This document shows, one piece after another, positions 3,701 through 52,415 of a stretch of DNA of 64,000 bases. Origin of the DNA: Eledone cirrhosa (taxonomy: Eukaryota); NCBI GenBank assembly GCA_964016885.1, contig OZ024747.1, positions 9,548,001 to 9,612,000 of the forward strand, given 5' to 3'. The notes beneath the pieces were generated by a model. The model worked only from the letters and a program-made list of their open reading frames with translations, ran no database searches and was not told the DNA's origin. The position numbers and the translations under genes are program-made. Numbering within the stretch: the first letter of the stretch is position 1; each line of letters begins with the position of its first letter.

Positions 3701-6700
3701 AAGATATTGTCCTGTGTCGAGCTTCGATACGACCAACATTGATTTTAAAAGTAAAGTGTCATTATGTGTCTACTTTGAAACACTTTTATTACATCATCAT
3801 CATTACCACCATCACCAATAGTATTACCATCATCATCATCACCACTATTGCCATCAACACCACTACTACCACCACCACCATCACCATTACCACCATTACA
3901 TCATCATTATCACCAATATTACCAATATTATTATTACATCACCATCATCATCATCATCATCATCAACACCACCTCTATCACCAATATTACCATCATCATC
4001 ATCAACACCACGACCATTGCCATCACTGTCACCATTATTGTCATCATCATCATCATCACTATCACCAATATTACCACCACTACCATCATCAATACCACCA
4101 CTACCACCACCACCACTGCCATCATTATCAATATGAATTCTTTACTAGTTTTGCTAATCTGTTGCTTTCCTCCCCCTCCCTCTAGGAAAGCCATCATGGC
4201 CGACAGGTGATGGACATCAAACATATATCTTCAACATCATCACAGACTTCAGGTAAAACACTTTACATATTTTGTATACTCTGTATGTGTCTGTTTATAT
4301 GAATCGGATCCGATGTAGGTACCATGGTGAGTTGCAGCTGTCAATAGGTACCATGTAGAGGTACAGTCTACCTGGCTGTCAATAGGTACCATATAGTAGG
4401 TACAGTCTACCTAGCTGTCAATTGGTACCATATAGAGGTACAGTCTACCTGGCTGTCAATAGGTACCATATAGAGGTACAGTCTACCTGGCTGTCAATAG
4501 GTACCATGTAGAGGTACAGTCCACTTGGTTGTCAATAGGTACCATGTAGAGGTACAGTCCACTTGGTTGTCAATAGGTACCATATAGAGGTACAGTCTAC
4601 CTGGCTGTCAATAGGTACCATATAGAGGTACAGTCTACCTAGCTGTCAATTGGTACCATATAGAGGTACAGTCTACCTGGCTGTCAATAGGTACCATATA
4701 GAGGTACAGTCTACCTGGCTGTCAATAGGTACCATATAGTAGGTACAGTCTACCTGGCTGTCAATAGGTACCATATAGAGGTACAGCCCACCTGGCTGTC
4801 AATAGGTACCATATAGAGGTACAGTCTACCTGGCTGTCAATAGGTACCATGTAGAGGTACAGTCTACCTGGCTGTCAATAGGTACCATATAGTAGGTACA
4901 GTCTACCTGGCTGTCAATAGGTACCATATAGTAGGTACAGTCTACCTGGCTGTCAATAGGTACCATATAGTAGGTACAGTCTACCTGGCTGTCAATAGGT
5001 ACCATATAGAGGTACAGCCCACCTGGCTGTCAATAGGTACCATATAGAGGTACAGTCTACCTGGCTGTCAATAGGTACCATGTAGAGGTACAGTCCACCT
5101 GGCTGTCAATAGGTACCATATAGTAGGTACAGTCTACCTGGCTGTCAATAGGTACCATATAGTAGGTACAGTCTACCTGGCTGTCAATAGGTACCATATA
5201 GAGGTACAGCCCACCTAGCTGTCAATAGGTACCATATGTATCATATCTTTAGGCACAATACCAGCAATTTTGGGGGAGGGGAAAGTCAATTAAATCGATC
5301 CAGTGCATTACTGGTACTTTATTTCATCAACTCTTTAAGGATGAAAGACAAAACTAACCTTGGGATCTGAACCTATAATGCAAAGGGACATAACTATATG
5401 CCACAAAGCATGATGTCCGACACTCAACTGTAATAATAAGATTTAGTGAAATATCATCTCTGTATTATTCAACATAAACTACTTGTCTTTCTCTATTGCA
5501 GATATAAGCAGTCATATATGTATTAGCTGCAGTGAAGACACCTCACTTCAAATGATTTGCCTCAACTTCAGTATCCTTGTCTCCTTGCTCTACACTACAT
5601 AACTCTCTCTCTCTCTGTTGTTGACATTCTGGTTGACAGTGATGTTGATAGTATGGTTGACAGTGTGTTGTTGACACAGTGTGGTTGACACAGTGTTGTT
5701 GGCAGTGTTGTTGACAGTGTTGTTGATGCTGTTGTTGACACTGTTGTTGTTGACACAGTGTTGTTGACACAGTGCTGTTGACACTGTGTGGTTGAGACAA
5801 TGTGGTTGACACAGTGTTGTTGACACAGTGCTGTTGACACTGTGTGGTTGACACAGTGTTGTTGACACTGTTGTTGACATAGTGTGGTTGACACAGTGTT
5901 GTTGACACAGTGTGTGGTTGACACAGTGTTGTTAACCTTATACAGTCAACTCTCTCAAAGTCTTCACACAGGAGTAAAGAATAATATTATGTTGGCCAGA
6001 TGTAATTTTATTTTTATTTTTGAGTGACTCTTATTAACCTTAATTCATTAAAAAAGAACCTGGGCCCACCACCACTGACATGAAGATCCTGGCAACATTA
6101 CAAGCCCATATATCTAGTGTCCGATGTTTAGCTGTTCTACCCAGCACCAGTTCGTTATCTCACACACCCACAACAGTCTTTGAGTCACACTTGGTGATCT
6201 CCGGTGGTGGTCGTGCTCAGCTGAATGTATGGCGGTGCAGTGTTGTCTCATCTGACAGAAGAGAGGAGGAGATAGAGGAGAAAGAAACAGAAGACAGAGA
6301 GAGTGTTGTTACACCTGGATCCAATTACCTACATGAACACCTTTGTTCAGATTTTCTCGTCAAACGTCCACGGAAACTCTGGAAGTCCGGTGCACTCACA
6401 CTTGATCCAGAAATGCGTATTCTAAGTCTCACAGCTTTCCATGGACACCAGATAGACTCTAGTGTGGAGACTGGTTATTTGTTTATTGCTACTGCCTGTT
6501 CTGATGGTACTATACGGTATGTCTTTTTTTCTATAGTTAATTGGTGATGGCAGTGGATTGGCAGAATTGGTAGAGTGTCAGACAACATGCTTTGCAGTAT
6601 AGAGTTATGACCCTTTACATTCTGATTTTAAATCCCACTGAGGTTAGCTTTGCCTTTCATCCTTACAAGGTTGATAAAATAAAGTACCAGTAATGCACTG

Positions 6701-8440
6701 GGGCCGATCTAATCAACTTTCCCATTCCCAAAAATTGTTGGCCTTGTGCCTAAATCAGAAACCGTTATCGGCAATGGCTTGACAGAATTGTGGCTTCCCT
6801 GTAAATCTGTAGGGTACAACCTGGGATATTGTGGATTCCCTTTAAATCTGTAGGGTACAACCTGGGATATTGTGGATTCCCTTTAAATCTGTAGGGTACA
6901 ACCTGGGATATTGTGGCTTCCCTGTAAATCTGTAGGGCACAACCTGGGACATTGTGGCTTCCCTGTAAATCTGTAGGGTACAACCTGGGATATTGTGGCT
7001 TCCCTTTAAATCTGTAGGGTACAACCTGGGATATTGTGGCTTCCCTGTAAATCTGTAGGGCACAACCTGGGACATTGTGGCTTCCCTGTAAATCTGTAGG
7101 GTACAACTTGGGATATTGTGGCTTCCCTGTAAATCTGTAGGGCACAACCTGGGACATTGTGGCTTCCCTGTAAATCTGTAGGGTACAACCTGGGATATTG
7201 TGGCTTCCCTTTAAATCTGTAGGGTACAACCTGGGATATTGTGGCTTCCCTGTAAATCTGTAGGGCACAACCTGGGACATTGTGGCTTCCCTGTAAATCT
7301 GTAGGGTACAACTTGGGATATTGTGGCTTCCCTGTAAATCTGTAGGGCACAACCAGGGACATTGTGGCTTCCCTGTAAATCTGTAGGGTACAACCTGGGA
7401 TATTGTGGCTTCCCTGTAAATCTGTAGGGTACAACCTGGGACATTGTGGCTTCCCTGTAAATCTGTAGGGCACAACCTGGGACATTGTGGCTTCCCTGTA
7501 AATCTGTAGGGTACAACCTGGGATATTGTGGCTTCCCTGTAAATCTGTAGGGCACAACCAGGGACATTGTGGCTTCCCTGTAAATCTGTAGGGCTCAACA
7601 AGGGACATTGTGGTTCCTTCAACTAATTCTCTTATTCTCTCCTCTATTGTAGACTTTTCTGCTTTGATGAACGACAACACAACAACAAGAGAAACTCTAC
7701 CAGAAGGAACCAGCTGCAATTGGTGTGGTTGCAACACTGTCATGGTGGCAGCTGTGTGCTGCAGGTGTCTCACATCCTCTATCACTGCAAAAGCAGTAGT
7801 AATGATGCAGGAAGTGTCATTGTTGTTCTAGTTTCAGCTGCAACAGATGGCCAGATAGCTTTCTGGGATGTCACTACAATCTGCAACCAATATATTCACC
7901 AGCTCCGCTCCCCTGACTCAGATAATTCAACAGGTCCTGTTGAACCCTCTGTGAAATCAAACACCCCAGAATACTGTATGAGACCCTCCTCGGTCTACAC
8001 AGTCGAAGAAGAAAGCAGTGATCCACAGGTCAAGCAAATACCCCGGATGATGGAAAATACTTCTGACTTCTGTACACAGAGTGATGCTGATGCTAGTAGT
8101 GGTGGTGGTGGTGATTGTGGCGGTGGTGGTGATGGCGGTGGTGGTGATGCCTGTGGAAGATGTCTTAACATTGATGATGGTGGTCATTGCAATAGTGATG
8201 ATAATGAAGCTGATAATGATGGTCATGATGATAGTGGTGGTGATGATAATGATAATGATAATGAGGAGAAGGAGAAAGAGGAGGTCGCTACATGTCTTAT
8301 CTACAAAACATCTGGTCACCAATCTGGTGTAAATAGTTTACATCTGTTACATCTGGAAGGTAACACTGATCAGTGTGTATATATATGTGTGTGTGAGTGT
8401 GTATAGTCAGAAGCCTATCCCTAGATATCACCATTGGTCA

Positions 8441-14215: not shown

Positions 14216-14655
14216 AACACTCAGTCTACTAAGCTGTAAGTAAGAGCCACAGTGTGGTATTTATAGTTGACTAAAGCAAACAACAGTAGTTAGTAGTAGT
14301 ACTGTGTATTAGTGATGTGGTGTGTTTCATTAGTGTCCAGTGAGTATAGTTTAGAAAGGGATTGGCTTTGCTATGCTCACTGGACCCTGATACATCCATT
14401 GAAGAAGACAGTCTCCAGTGGTTCTTCCTGCAACCCCCTGGCTTATGTCTAGATGAATATACATACATACTTTTATATATATATATATATCTCATTGTCG
14501 TCTTAACATCCACGTCCCCTGCTAACAAGGGTTGGACGGGTCCATATTGACCAAGTCAGTAATGAAGTGGAGCCGCTGATCTCCCAAGCAGGCCAGGGAC
14601 CTGTGCACTTATGTACAGTCTCACGTTCCATGAGTGCTCAGGAGACATTGTCATG

Positions 14656-15812: not shown

Positions 15813-29224
<13,412 letters not shown>

Positions 29225-36040: not shown

Positions 36041-36675
36041 TACATACATATATGTATATAAACACACACATTTATTTGTATATACGCTACAATTTATGTA
36101 CATGTTATGTTTATTGCATATCGAAGTTTTTTTTTATATCTTGGTTAATATTTGATAATAACAGCTAAACTAATCACTACAACTAAATTGACCAAATCCC
36201 CCCCAATTCAGAAATGCTTCCACCTCCATTTACCATTGAGGTCCGCGAGGATAACTTCTTAAAACAATAATAGAAATTAATAGATTTTAAAAAGGTGTCC
36301 TTTTATTTTTGAGTTTAACCAATGTTTACACGGTCATCAGGCGAAATTGAAGGGTAACAGGACATTGACTTGACCTTAGTAAAACTAATACACTTCCTCT
36401 CTCTCTCTCAATATATATATATAGAGAGATATATATATATATATAGATATATATCGTTTATTATAGAAATGGCTTCTACAGGACTAGAACTGTTTCATTC
36501 AAAAGAAATCATCAGGCTTTCCTGACGATTTCTTTAGAATGAAACAGTTCTAATCCTGTAGAAGCCATTTCTATATTAAACATGATGTTTACACTCTACT
36601 AATGTATTGAGTACCTTACTGTGGTTACTCCCGACTGGACCCGAGACTCGCACACATATATATATATATACTTAA

Positions 36676-38288: not shown

Positions 38289-38720
38289 CTTTTAGTTTTT
38301 CTGTTAAGTACGTGAAACTCCTTGTGTGAAAGAATGGAGAGAAAGAACGGGAATTAAGAAAGCAATGTGTACGAATGTGTTACGGCGCGCTACAAATATA
38401 GCTTTTGTTATCGTTCTTCTTATATTTAAGGTAAAATATATATAAAAAAGAAACTATTCAGTAAAAAAAAAAAAGAAATAGTGATTAATAGAGGAAGACA
38501 GAATGAAACAGAGGTGTGTATTTATGTGTACATTACGACCTGGTTTCGATATATCTGACATAAAACCGGTGCTCGTTGGCGTGTTTTTAAATACACATCT
38601 CTGATTGGCTACACCGATTACACCTCGTTACTCTACACTTGTTAAAACATATTCGTTGGTTCAACACAGCATACCTTCCCCTTACATCAGCGTTTTACAT
38701 CTTCGGCCCTAATATATACG
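38289..38720 (-). promoter_or_regulatory. Candidate sideroflexin non-coding first exon and promoter
   Basis: The start ATG sits at an acceptor, so an upstream exon is required. Strong minus-strand donor AAG|GTAAGT at 38289/38288; unique, locally CpG-retaining sequence; CCAAT box on minus (ctgattggct, 38601-38610). TSS not determinable. Confidence 0.5.
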
Positions 38721-39625: not shown

Positions 39626-41193
39626 TGGCTTTCTGTCTCCCAAATAATTTCACTCAAAAGGCATTAGTCAACTCCAGGTTTTGGGATAAGCCTCCTTGGT
39701 TACGGTTTTGTGCCGTAAGATCGAAACTAACGGATATTGTTTTCTGTTTCCCAATCTCCCTTCGTCGTGGACTCGGAGTAGCGTTACTGTCACAGTATAA
39801 CCAGTTACTCTTTCTGACAGCAATTCCTAAATTTGACATCCTACTGATCCTGGCTTCTAAGACTACATTATAGTGTTGATAATATGGCTACGATAAGGTG
39901 TTATATATGTAATATAGTGAGTTGAAAAAGACTCATTAATGAGATTATCCAAGCTATTAGAGGACAAAATCTCCCCCCAAATGAATATTTAAAATCTAAC
40001 AAGGGAGATAACTCTAATTGCTTTTTTTTTTTTTACCCCCATGAGGGTACCTGGTTGTTTTAGCGCCTTAACTTCATATCACACGTAGTAATGTTACGGG
40101 CGTGTTGGCTTGCCTCAAAGTGTTCCGTTGACCTTTACGATGTGTTATCTATTGTCGCACTTGGTGCGTTCTAGTTTTTCTTTTTGCTTCCCCTTTTTGT
40201 GTATTATATTTTATATATGTTTGTTTATTATATTTGTGAGGTACCTAGCAATAATTAATTGTATTTTTATGTGTTTATATTTTCATTCTGTAAGGATTTG
40301 TAATGATATATTTACAGATTATCCACAAGTGATGGGAAGAGACCAGACGGCCTTACCCTCTGGCCCTGGGTAAGAGGCAGGTGTCTCATATGATACGTCA
40401 CAGTCAGTGACTCCTAGGCTCCCTCCAACATTATGGATGTCGTGGTAAATGTTGCGAACATGTTGGCTTGTCTCAAAATATTCCGTTGACCCTTGTAATG
40501 TGCGGCCAATTGTCGCACTAGGTTGTGAATTGATAGTCGTTTTTGTTTTTGTTCTTCCCTTTTTTCTTCTGTCTCTCAGTCTGGCCATATTTTAGATGGG
40601 TTATATTTGTGAGGTTCCGAACAATGATTAATTGTATTTATTATGTGTGTTTATATTTGTGTTTGCAGTCGCCCTGCTCATGATAGTTAGTCTGTAAGTA
40701 GTTTTGACTATTTCATAGGTTTCTGAAGCGGTTTTGCATATCAAGCCTCCAAGTTGTGCTCATGCCCTGACTGCATTGTGGGACCAGTCAGCTGTGACAA
40801 GATGTGCGTGACGGGTAGTGTTTAAAGTGTTGTAGTGGCCCGAACCTTCAGCCTGGAAAAACAAGATATTGCAGGTTAGCTTAATATAACCATATCAAGG
40901 TTGTATTATAGTGACAGTTATGGAGGTTAATTAAAAGTGTCTGAAAAGAAAAGCCTCAACACGTGTGCGTGAAAAATTTCTGTAGTAAACTAAATTTTAG
41001 GAAATATTGATTTTTGTTCACTGTAGCACAGCAAGACCTGGCTGTGTCAGATATTCTGACAACTTCACCCATCCGCACACCCACACAGAACAATGAAGAT
41101 CATAGCAGAGATGGGACAGTGTAAGGAGGGTGGGGAGGTGTATTGATAAGAATTCTTTATCAGTAAATATACACATACAATTAAAAGTTTACA

Positions 41194-47700: not shown

Positions 47701-47980
47701 AAGGTATATCAACACGGTGATGCTGGTGGTGATTATACGGTATCTCTTCTGCTGCTTAAATCCTACTGTTGCTCAGCATCAATTATGATAATAATCCCCA
47801 CCCTCATCTCCACTCCCTCCCTCCCTCCCCTTTTGCCAATCTGTCATGGCGAATGCAGCAGCACGGTGGAATCACGTCGGCTTCTTCTCTTGTTGCTGCT
47901 CTTTACTCTGGACTATTTTTACCTACTAAATTTTATTTTTTTCTAAATTCAAGATGCCGTGACATTTTTAACATATTCAG
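47701..47980 (+). other. Candidate first exon of an unidentified (possibly non-coding host) transcript
   Basis: Unique CpG-retaining sequence after a (CT)n tract, ending in a consensus donor CAG|GTAAGT at 47980/47981; no recognisable protein; start coordinate approximate. Confidence 0.4.
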
Positions 47981-48208
47981 GTAAGTGGAGTGTCAATATA
48001 TAATATTATTTGAATACAAAGTGTGGAAAAAGAACAAATGTGGAAAGAAAACCACGAAAAACATTCACCAGCTGTATTTCTTTGTATTGTGACTCTTTAC
48101 ATTCTTGTTTTAGAGCAAAACATTTAACGTCTAATTAAATAGAAAAAGAAAAAATACGCCAGAAAGAAAAGAAAACGAGAAAGAGAAAGTAACATCGTGT
48201 CGTCTTCA

Positions 48209-48833
48209 GCTGTGGTCGTTAAATGGGGGATTGATTTCGTATTGTTAGTTCAGTATAAACTGATCCCGTATTTCATGACCAGCAAGTCGTCTTCTGCTGT
48301 GGTCACCAAATGGGGGTTTGATTTCTTGTTGTTAACACAATATAAACTGCTCCCCTATTTCGTGACCAGCAAGTAGTCTTCTGCTATAGTTCGTAAATGG
48401 GGGGTTGGTTTCAGTTTGTTGAATATATGGAAACGGTCCCCTGACTTTATGACCGCCATATATATATATACATACATATATATATTGAAGTACGCGAAAC
48501 AGAAAGAAAATGACTATGAGAAAAAATAAACAATTGTCAAGAGTATTTCACATTAGGAGAGCTTATTTAAGGTATTCGTTAGTTCCTTTTTATTCTCTCG
48601 TTAATTGCTCCGTTGAATGCCTTAGAAAAGAAAGAAGGATGGGTTAGAAAGAGAAAGTAACTACTGTCTTCTGCTAGGGGAAATGGGAAATCAATTTTAC
48701 GTTGTTAACATCATATAAACTGGTCCCCCACTTTGTGGCCACCAGTAGTCTTCTTCAGCTGCTATGGTCGGTAAGTGGGATATTAATTTAACGTTGCTAC
48801 TACTCTGTGAACTGATCCCTTATTTCATGACTA
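48209..48833 (+). ncRNA. Candidate cluster of five paralogous pre-miRNA-like hairpins (48209-48283, 48295-48371, 48382-48457, 48672-48744, 48761-48833)
   Basis: Diverged ~87-nt units, each self-complementary over about 30-35 bp, with covarying substitutions between copies; G-U pairs favour the + strand. Confidence 0.55.
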
Positions 48834-48899
48834 CCCTTATGTGGTTAATTAAAAATTTAAGACACCGCAGCTTTTTGATAATCAGAAAATAGGTGGAAT

Positions 48900-50858: not shown

Positions 50859-51060
50859 ATGTTTAATATAGAAATGGCTTCTACAGGACTAGAACTGTTT
50901 CATTCAAAAGAAATCAACAGGAAAGCCCTGATGATTTCTTTTGAATGAAACAGTTCTAGTCCTGTAGAAGTGATCTCTATATTAAATATGATGTTTACAC
51001 TCTACCAATGTATTGAGTACCTTACTTACTGTGGTTACCTCTGCTTGAACCTGGGACCTA

Positions 51061-51101: not shown

Positions 51102-51309
51102 CAAAGGAATTGTGGTAAGGAACCAGATGGACCATAACGCACCAGAGTACTCAATACTTAGGGTAGTAGAGTGGGAAATAGGAAAAAGTATGATCCCGAC
51201 GGCAGAGCTCAAGCCGTTTCGACGGCTATTTCTTGACTCAAATATTTCTGGACAGAAATAGCCGTCGAAATGGGTTGAGCTCTGCCGTCGGGATCATACT
51301 TTTTCCTAT
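51101..51309. mobile_element. Palindromic dispersed element family P2 (second copy 52217-52420)
   Basis: ~75-bp leader then ~130-bp inverted repeat; both copies embedded in (TA)n. Confidence 0.75.
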
Positions 51310-51975: not shown

Positions 51976-52415
51976 TATCCAGGGAGTGTAACTCAATGTT
52001 TAGGTTCACTTCAGTGTCGAGGTGTAGAGCTATACAGAGTGTATTATAGTTAAATAAGATAACCAAGGAGTAACCAATTGTCCTTGTTATCTTATTTAAC
52101 TATATATAATATATATATGTATTATGTATGTATATATATATATATATATCCATGCTAGCGTGGAAAATGGACGTTAAACGAAGATGATGATATATATATA
52201 TATATATATATATATAACGAAGGAAATGTGGTAAGGAACCAGATGGACCATAACGCACCAAAGTACTCAATACTTAGGGTAGTAGAGTGGGTAATAGTAA
52301 TGAGTAGGACCCTGACGGCTGAGCTCAAGCCGTTTCGACAGCTAATTCTGGACTAAACTTAGTCCAGAATTAGCCATCGAAACGGCTTGAGCTCAGCCCT
52401 CGGGGTCCTACTCGT

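What the first reader, a model, noticed from the sequence alone, without database searches (positions are those of the whole stretch)
48209..48833. Cluster of five paralogous pre-miRNA-like hairpins: candidate lineage-specific microRNA family
Seen: five diverged units, three at 87-nt spacing and two more after a spacer; both blocks are preceded by aagagaaagtaac. Each unit folds back on itself. Unit 1 is gctgtggtcgttaaatgggggattgatttcgtattg-ttagtt-cagtataaactgatcccgtatttcatgaccagc, about 35 bp of stem. Substitutions covary between arms (gtcgt/atgac vs gtcac/gtgac; gattt/aaac vs gtttc/gaaac) while loops vary freely. Arm cores are kept (5' AAATGGG, 3' TATAAACTG in three units), and a conserved gt.gtcttc flank supplies CNNC-type motifs 3' of units 1, 2 and 4. 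Many G-U pairs work only on +, the same strand as the splice donor 230 bp upstream. Unlike the homogeneous minisatellites here, structure is kept while sequence diverges. Established: coleoid cephalopods have a large expansion of novel miRNA families. Inference: an intronic polycistronic miRNA cluster. I do not recognise the mature sequences. Unit 4 pairs worst and may be decaying.
Basis: partly seen in the sequence, partly recalled or inferred. Interest (0 to 1): 0.85.

Follow-up and report, generated by a model that had tools for sequence, protein, structure and literature searches.

The report
Octopod hairpin cluster from palindromic repeat
Five tandem hairpins in an octopus-type genome are copies of an old palindromic repeat scattered over many chromosomes, whose likely squid relatives were reported as small RNAs, so the cluster is likely a repeat-born microRNA cluster and points to a possible source of new cephalopod microRNAs.

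Summary
The five units are real (87-nt period, 60-84% alike), but only units 1 and 2 fold well on + (z about -5). Unit 3 is marginal, unit 5 poor, and unit 4 folds better on -. Covariation and arm-over-loop conservation are not above chance.

The hairpin is not unique to this locus. At least 12 more copies of the same ~75-80-bp palindrome lie at 11 places on 8 other contigs, with unrelated flanks and decay that fits neutrality: an old, low-copy, MITE-like repeat. A published squid small-RNA table lists one clear and one probable relative as miRDeep2 calls. The probable one has a 59-nt precursor whose register gives unit 1 a canonical pre-miRNA (59 nt, loop UGU, CNNC at +17, U at positions 1 and 9).

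A G-U excess on + and the window's only strong + splice donor 230 bp upstream suggest an intronic + transcript. Best reading: one repeat copy was tandemly amplified into a polycistronic miRNA cluster, as Made1 gave mir-548, with units 1 and 2 the likely active members. No reads from this organism could be tested, so a neutral relic remains possible.

The parts
47978..47986 (+). Consensus 5' splice donor CAG|GTAAGT, likely closing a non-coding exon of the host transcript (inferred)
   Evidence: Only MAG|GTRAGT match on + in the window; one of the two - strand matches sits at the edge of a sideroflexin exon. The 47830-48170 stretch had one match in the genome search.
48178..48193 (+). Purine-rich 16-mer preceding block 1, identical to the one before block 2
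48199..48285 (+). Unit 1: spacer plus hairpin 48209-48284; predicted pre-miRNA 48219-48277, predicted 3p product 48256-48277 (seed AAACUGA)
   Evidence: -29.2 kcal/mol, z -5.15 on +; -16.1 on -. 28 of 31 pairs kept, the best of 17 copies. Register transferred by eye from squid miR_13894.
48286..48372 (+). Unit 2: hairpin 48296-48371; predicted pre-miRNA 48306-48364, 3p 48343-48364 (seed AAACUGC)
   Evidence: -29.6 kcal/mol, z -5.25 on +; also z -4.36 on -. 26 of 31 pairs. 84% identical to unit 1.
48373..48458 (+). Unit 3: weaker hairpin; predicted 3p 48430-48451 (seed AAACGGU); 3' flank replaced by a (TA)n run, no CNNC at +16 to +18
   Evidence: z -0.81
48646..48661 (+). Second copy of the purine-rich 16-mer, preceding block 2
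48662..48750 (+). Unit 4: 4-nt deletion in the 5' lower stem, A-C mismatches on +, folds better on -; predicted 3p 48716-48737 (seed AAACUGG) if processed at all
48751..48837 (+). Unit 5: in register with unit 1 without gaps, 24 of 31 pairs kept but 8 of them G-U, weak fold; predicted 3p 48808-48829 (seed GAACUGA)
   Evidence: z +0.56

Best explanation
The five units are tandem duplicates of a ~75-80-bp palindrome that also lies in dispersed copies across this genome, likely an old MITE-like repeat shared with squid, and this cluster is likely transcribed on + in an intron and predicted to be cut by Drosha and Dicer into 22-nt 3p microRNAs, mainly from units 1 and 2. Shown: the tandem structure, the homology to dispersed copies, the folds, the splice-donor match and the G-U bias. 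Inferred: (1) one copy landed downstream of a + strand exon, and a block duplication (~468 bp, marked by the shared 16-mer) plus tandem duplications gave five units; (2) read-through transcription yields hairpins of pre-miRNA size ready-made, as with Made1/mir-548; (3) substitutions opened the palindrome to G-U pairs and mismatches, and the spacer supplies CNNC; (4) the products share the seed core AAACUG (units 1, 2, 4), with variants in units 3 and 5. Units 4 and 5 are likely decaying or depend on help from neighbouring hairpins.
For: ANCESTRY. A model built on the five units alone (R2) scores dispersed loci with both arms, e.g. L035 41.7 bits, L079 35, L066 33.2, L041 27.3, L075 26.7 (the loci were pre-selected for one arm, so E-values are optimistic). 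17 copies align almost without gaps. Flanks of 16 dispersed loci share only simple repeats and one common repeat. Units are closer to each other (0.65) than to dispersed copies (0.55) and share spacer and loop bases. SMALL RNA IN A RELATIVE. PMC8125070 Data Set S1 (squid hemolymph) lists miR_208658_40368 (score 4.7; both arms of the palindrome, 22 of 24 and 22 of 26 letters equal to L091 and L060, compared by eye) and miR_13894_3975/3981 (score 13; 59-nt precursor; mature 3p equal to unit 1 in its first 10 nt and 16 of 22 overall, by eye). GEOMETRY in that register: 59-nt precursor, 23/14/22-nt arm-loop-arm, UGU at loop nt 2-4 in 4 of 5 units, CNNC at +17, +17 and +16 for units 1, 2, 4, U at nt 1 and nt 9 in 4 of 5. 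MirGeneDB 3.0 gives a mean precursor of 60 nt, arms of 22+/-1 nt, and U enrichment at positions 1 and 9. STRAND. G-U excess in the cluster (26 vs 11) but not in 15 dispersed copies (40 vs 33); unique strong + donor upstream. CONSTRAINT HINTS. The identical 16-mer between blocks that are ~35% diverged; seed columns 0.33 changes per column, 3p arm 0.64, 5p arm 0.91 (trend only).
Against: No covariation among the 5 units or the 17 copies (64.6% paired; 335 of 500 shuffles as high). Unit 1's 28 of 31 pairs has P about 0.13 under neutral decay at 15% divergence and 0.04 at 20%, so good folding needs no selection. Units 3-5 are not significant folds on +. Indel deficit not shown: 20 gaps per 196 mismatches in pairwise alignments, against 0.093-0.098 in other repeats. 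No basal UG at -14 in units 1, 2, 3 or 5 in the squid register. A G-U excess can also come from transcription-linked mutation skew (own knowledge). The squid calls are low-scoring miRDeep2 predictions with two different cut registers, and the squid mature has no close hairpin counterpart here (8 matches at 3 mismatches vs 13 in the control). The tree does not support the five units as one clade (low supports). No target-site duplication or autonomous element was established.
Confidence: 0.55

Rival explanations
1. Neutral relic: a decayed palindromic repeat that was tandemly duplicated by chance and has no small-RNA function; the hairpins are leftovers of the palindrome.
For: No covariation. 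Pairing level fits neutral decay. Three of five units fold no better than shuffles on +. Indel rate like other repeats. Other family members also occur as local pairs (L079, L143, L099), so duplication of this element is not unique.
Against: Strand bias only in the cluster. The two best-paired of 17 copies are units 1 and 2. A 16-mer stays identical between blocks ~35% apart. Duplication unit equals hairpin plus a ~10-nt spacer. Squid relatives called as small RNAs.
Confidence: 0.25
2. The whole dispersed family are miRNA genes (an old coleoid miRNA family spread by gene duplication), not a mobile repeat; the cluster is its largest locus.
For: Constant hairpin span in almost all copies. Few copies found. 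Squid relatives called as miRNAs.
Against: Homology stops at the palindrome ends. Both arms drift from one palindromic type without compensation. No strand bias in dispersed copies. Seeds are not fixed among copies. Zolotarov et al. count only 94 genes in 90 novel Octopus families.
Confidence: 0.1
3. The repeats are kept for another role: an intronic dsRNA element (ADAR substrate or splicing modulator; neighbouring units can also pair with each other) or a DNA-level palindromic regulatory site near the donor or promoter.
For: Whole-cluster folds pair unit 1 with unit 3 and unit 4 with unit 5 in long helices. Unit 4 carries A-C mismatches, preferred ADAR sites (own knowledge). Most octopus editing falls in introns and 3'UTRs.
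Against: Unit size and spacer fit a pre-miRNA. Nothing tested here shows editing or binding.
Confidence: 0.1

Closest known systems
Made1 MITE and the human mir-548 family (PMC1784062; abstract and passages seen)
   Same: An ~80-bp near-perfect palindrome (two arms around a ~6-nt loop), dispersed, non-coding, giving pre-miRNA-like hairpins by read-through from neighbouring promoters, from either strand.
   Different: Made1 has a known autonomous parent (Hsmar1) and many close copies. Here the copies found are few (tens) and old (about 55% identical to each other), no parent or TSD is shown, and one copy is amplified into a tandem cluster.
Euprymna scolopes miRDeep2 calls miR_13894_3975/3981 and miR_208658_40368 (PMC8125070 Data Set S1; rows seen by term search)
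   Same: Same palindromic family (clear for miR_208658, probable for miR_13894); miR_13894 has the same 59-nt span and a 3p product beginning with the same 10 nt as unit 1's predicted one.
   Different: Listed as separate loci, not an 87-nt tandem cluster; low scores; not one-to-one orthologues; the passages I saw do not link them to a repeat.
Novel coleoid/Octopus miRNA families of Zolotarov et al. 2022 and MirGeneDB (PMC9699675, PMC11701709)
   Same: Lineage-restricted hairpins of canonical size in an octopod; the cluster could be one of these families.
   Different: Their sequences were not in the text or supplements I could search, so identity is untested. Ovu-Novel-20-P1/P2 (3p mature, A at nt 6) is the only novel family with paralogue suffixes in the Table S4 rows I saw. 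An A at nt 6 fits only a 3p start two bases earlier than the squid register, so this is a lead, not a match.
Tandem-duplicated polycistronic miRNA clusters such as mir-2/71, mir-430 or C19MC (recalled, from no call)
   Same: Paralogous hairpins at short spacing, shared seed core, intron of a host transcript.
   Different: No Rfam family matches the units (best: mir-964 at 20.4 bits against a gathering score of 100).

Membership tests
Canonical animal miRNA gene (MirGeneDB criteria) | Hairpin with 20-26-nt arms, about 19 bp paired, precursor about 60 nt | tested here: inconclusive
   Met by unit 1 and largely unit 2 (59 nt); marginal for unit 3; not met by the MFE of units 4 and 5 on +.
Canonical animal miRNA gene (MirGeneDB criteria) | Reads from both arms with 2-nt 3' overhangs and homogeneous 5' ends | not testable with these tools
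   No run was listed. Only a squid relative has a reported product.
Canonical animal miRNA gene (MirGeneDB criteria) | Microprocessor motifs (basal UG, apical UGU, CNNC, CmR/mGHG) | tested here: inconclusive
   Squid register: UGU 4 of 5, CNNC at +16/+17 in 3 of 5, basal UG at -14 in 1 of 5. CmR judged by eye as not met in this register. Motif positions are recalled; their existence is.
Canonical animal miRNA gene (MirGeneDB criteria) | Mature arm and seed conserved over star and loop, across species | tested here: inconclusive
   Among paralogues only: seed 0.33, 3p 0.64, 5p 0.91, loop 1.0 changes per column; loop vs arms p=0.26. No other cephalopod genome was searchable.
Known Rfam miRNA family | Score above a family's gathering threshold | tested here: not met
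MITE (Made1-type non-autonomous DNA transposon) | Short, non-coding, terminal inverted repeats around a small spacer | tested here: met
   ~75-80-bp palindrome in 17 aligned copies
MITE (Made1-type non-autonomous DNA transposon) | Dispersed insertions with unrelated flanks | tested here: met
   12 copies at 11 loci on 8 other contigs; flanks unrelated apart from common repeats
MITE (Made1-type non-autonomous DNA transposon) | Target-site duplication | tested here: inconclusive
   Ends read by eye; too decayed to call (TA next to the end in L077 and the second L079 copy only).
MITE (Made1-type non-autonomous DNA transposon) | High copy number and an autonomous parent with the same ends | tested here: inconclusive
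   Pattern searches find tens, not thousands, but favour near-type copies. The DNA search misses diverged copies. The best single-arm match (L087) showed no hairpin; no transposase search was run.
Satellite or minisatellite | Homogeneous head-to-tail array | tested here: not met
   2-3 copies per block at 60-84% identity, against 94-97% and tens of copies in most long minisatellites of the window

The most novel reading that the evidence does not exclude
An ancient palindromic MITE-like repeat, active before squid and octopods split (nearly 300 million years by PMC9699675), seeded ready-made pre-miRNA hairpins across coleoid genomes. Different copies were then domesticated as miRNAs in different lineages, this five-unit cluster among them, so several 'novel families' in the coleoid miRNA expansion would trace back to one repeat. 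That would name a source that Zolotarov et al. state is unknown.
Probability: 0.25. Interest if true: 0.78.

Novelty: new member of a known kind. Interest (0 to 1): 0.52.

Why it matters
Coleoid cephalopods have the largest known invertebrate gain of miRNA families, and the paper that reported it says the source of the new loci is unknown. A coleoid-wide palindromic repeat whose copies have pre-miRNA size, are called as small RNAs in squid and are amplified into a tandem cluster in an octopod makes one answer directly testable: align all MirGeneDB cephalopod precursors to this repeat. The mechanism itself (MITE to miRNA) is known from Made1/mir-548, so the kind is not new. I found no description of this repeat or cluster in the paper searches, but MirGeneDB and repeat libraries were not searchable, so the cluster may already be annotated.

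Tried and rejected
Sequencing runs: no RNA holder was listed with the library word 'miRNA'; this is no evidence either way, and no reads were laid.

Rfam: only simple-repeat noise.

DNA searches of the genome with the units returned only this locus. I first read this as single-copy; one search shows the search misses diverged family members, so that reading was dropped.

Pattern: 33 matches, 3 in the cluster. Most others are one unrelated dispersed repeat. L007 later scored weakly as a family member.

26 matches against 121 for the reversed control, so the count itself means nothing. Of 22 matches outside the cluster, 11 showed a second arm and were kept; 11 (L063, L067-L073, L076, L078, L081) were dropped.

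45 matches, 21 of them one minisatellite on C17. L091, L099, L143 and L145 scored weakly as further copies. L083 and L086 look like copies by eye but did not reach E 0.05.

Metagenome scan: 1 match, inside a bacterial RHS-type gene, chance.

Model R1 was built with a structure out of register and was not used.

My first cut-site guess (3p starting at 48254, seed AUAAACU, 53-55-nt precursor) was replaced by the squid-derived register; neither is shown.

The hairpin-like pair at 40.0-40.9 kb is a high-copy repeat (3451 candidates), not part of the cluster.

Host gene: the cluster lies about 19 kb beyond the first coding exon of sideroflexin, which is on -, so that gene is not the host. 80 of 500 candidate ORFs in 150 kb downstream were scanned against Pfam; the first + strand hit was a RUN domain about 164 kb away, link untested.

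The bacterial promoter scan is irrelevant. Three look-ups of earlier findings returned nothing.

Supplements that could bear on novelty but gave no sequences: data files S1-S4 and figure pages of PMC9699675.

Full report
SETTING. The window is G000:C7:9548001-9612000 of a 3.0-Gb genome. A WDR6 exon is 67% identical to Octopus sinensis, 55% to Argonauta and at most 47% to other animals, so the animal is an octopod. Sideroflexin lies on - with its first coding exon ending near 29188. The finding sits about 19 kb beyond it, in an island of non-repetitive sequence between microsatellites.

THE OBSERVATION. Five units exist, at core spacings 87, 87, 286 and 92 and 60-84% identity. Both blocks follow an identical 16-mer found nowhere else in 214 kb. 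Only units 1 and 2 are strong hairpins on + (z -5.15 and -5.25; 0 of 500 shuffles as good). Unit 3 has z -0.81 and unit 5 z +0.56; unit 4 has z +1.37 on + and -1.62 on -. Covariation is not above chance: 3 of 29 pairs change on both sides and 147 of 500 shuffles match that. Loop versus arm change is 1.0 versus 0.78 per column, p=0.26. G-U pairs do outnumber A-C mismatches on + (25 vs 7 cells and 13 vs 3 columns; 26 vs 11), except in unit 4; these counts share ancestry. The donor at 47978 is the only MAG|GTRAGT on + in 64 kb. No Rfam family matches.

WHAT THE UNIT IS. DNA searches returned only this locus, but that search misses diverged copies. A pattern for the 3' arm found 7 matches (control 0), 3 of them on other contigs. 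A looser pattern found 26 (control 121); 11 of the 22 outside the cluster carry a recognisable second arm at about the same distance. With a second copy inside L079 this makes 12 dispersed copies at 11 loci on C1, C2, C8, C10, C12, C15, C18 and C22. Weaker copies were scored in L007, L091, L099, L143 and L145. The 17 copies align almost without gaps. They define a palindrome of about 75-80 bp whose two arms are reverse complements of one type sequence around a short loop. Flanks are unrelated apart from common repeats. Dispersed copies are about 55% identical to each other, show no covariation (335 of 500 shuffles as high) and no strand bias (G-U 40 vs A-C 33 in 15 copies), and keep about the pairing that neutral decay predicts. 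This is the anatomy of an old, low-copy, Made1-like MITE. A target-site duplication and an autonomous parent were not established, so 'MITE-like' is an inference. The true copy number is unknown; the searches favour near-type copies and give a lower bound.

EVIDENCE FROM SQUID. In Data Set S1 of PMC8125070 (rows seen by term search, not the whole table) the hemolymph list of 268 predicted and 18 known miRNAs contains two relatives. miR_208658_40368 (score 4.7) is the whole palindrome; by eye its arms equal L091 at 22 of 24 and L060 at 22 of 26 letters. miR_13894_3975/3981 (score 13, two identical loci on one scaffold) has a 59-nt precursor. Its mature 3p equals unit 1 in the first 10 nt and 16 of 22 overall, and L064 and L065 at 18 of 22. 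I judge the first certain and the second probable. So the family likely predates the squid-octopus split, or spread in both lineages, and some copies give small RNAs. The calls are low-scoring and use two cut registers. The squid mature has no close counterpart here (8 matches at 3 mismatches, control 13, none a family-type hairpin).

LIKELY MECHANISM. Transferring the miR_13894 register gives unit 1 a 59-nt precursor (48219-48277) with a 23-nt 5p arm, a 14-nt loop and the 22-nt 3p product TAAACTGATCCCGTATTTCATG. UGU falls at loop nt 2-4 in 4 of 5 units, CNNC at +17, +17 and +16 behind units 1, 2 and 4, and U at nt 1 and nt 9 in 4 of 5. A basal UG at -14 is present only in unit 4. MirGeneDB 3.0 (section 9 read) gives 60 nt, 22+/-1 nt and U1/U9 as typical and holds these motifs to be ancestral in bilaterians; the exact motif positions are recalled. 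The spacer offers CNNC in several registers, so it does not fix the cut. Units 1 and 2 are the two best-paired of 17 copies (28 and 26 of 31), yet that level is reachable by neutral decay (P about 0.13 at 15% divergence). I infer that a repeat copy came to lie in an intron of a + strand transcript, was duplicated as a ~468-bp block and in tandem, and is processed as a polycistron with the seed core AAACUG, units 4 and 5 decaying. The host is not identified: a non-coding first exon ending at 47980 is likely, and a distant 5' exon of the RUN-domain gene about 164 kb downstream is possible.

AGAINST. There is no expression evidence in this animal. There is no covariation and no demonstrated indel deficit (20 gaps per 196 mismatches, against 0.093-0.098 in other repeats). 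Three units fold weakly. Monophyly of the units is not supported by a short-sequence tree. Other copies also occur as local pairs. A neutral relic keeps 0.25.

WHAT IS KNOWN. The closest system is Made1/mir-548 (abstract and passages of PMC1784062). Zolotarov et al. (PMC9699675; sections 6 and 10, passages, parts 1-2 of 3 of the table archive, part 2 of 5 and a term search of the PDF) report 94 genes in 90 novel families and state that their source is unknown. No mature sequences were available there or in the MirGeneDB 3.0 supplement, so whether this cluster is already annotated is open; Ovu-Novel-20-P1/P2 is an untested lead. Sequence-word searches of full texts gave only unrelated papers, judged from the listings. 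Topic searches (listings only, apart from the papers named) showed no account of this repeat. PMC10954719, PMC7334207 and PMC6627760 were seen as passages only.

VERDICT. Observation partly confirmed; interpretation partly supported but reframed. Repeat ancestry about 0.9; miRNA processing of at least units 1-2 about 0.6; joint 0.55. It is a new member of a known kind (repeat-derived miRNA cluster). Interest 0.52, because it makes the origin of coleoid miRNAs testable with one alignment against MirGeneDB; 0.78 if several named families trace to this repeat (probability 0.25).

Noticed in passing
window 48662-48750: Unit 4 folds better on - (-21.0 vs -11.7 kcal/mol); on + its G-to-A changes face C. 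It could be an antisense precursor, or A-to-I editing could restore pairing (speculative).
   Followed up: partly
window 14321-14400 (+): A separate miRNA-sized hairpin in unmasked sequence, -33.3 kcal/mol on + against -22.8 on -; copy number not checked.
   Followed up: no
window 20538-20634, 36465-36572, 50870-50978; 51191-51296, 52318-52400: Two families of young, near-perfect palindromic repeats (down to -49 and -63 kcal/mol), unrelated in sequence to the cluster: present-day MITE-like elements that make a useful contrast.
   Followed up: partly
window 40040-40900: Tandem pair of hairpin-like units that proved to be a high-copy dispersed repeat (3451 candidates).
   Followed up: yes
window 6044-8406 (+) and about 19700-29200 (-), donor 38291 (-): WDR6 on + and sideroflexin on -, converging; a likely sideroflexin 5'UTR exon with a donor at 38291 and a CCAAT-type box near 38605.
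   Followed up: partly
L079:1026-1114 and 1490-1580; L143:50-136 and 223-309; L099:1501-1522 and 1735-1822: Other family members also occur as local pairs; L079 holds the most perfect palindrome found.
   Followed up: partly
L139:8377-8820 (+); L138:1551-3018 (-): RUN-domain exon on + about 164 kb downstream of the cluster; PHD and reverse-transcriptase remnants of a LINE-like element on -.
   Followed up: no
PMC8125070 Data Set S1, miR_162788_26773: A third squid call that begins and ends like the palindrome's outer arms but is shorter; relation uncertain.
   Followed up: no
L034: Chance 25-base match inside a bacterial RHS-repeat gene next to a small ORF and an HTH regulator.
   Followed up: yes
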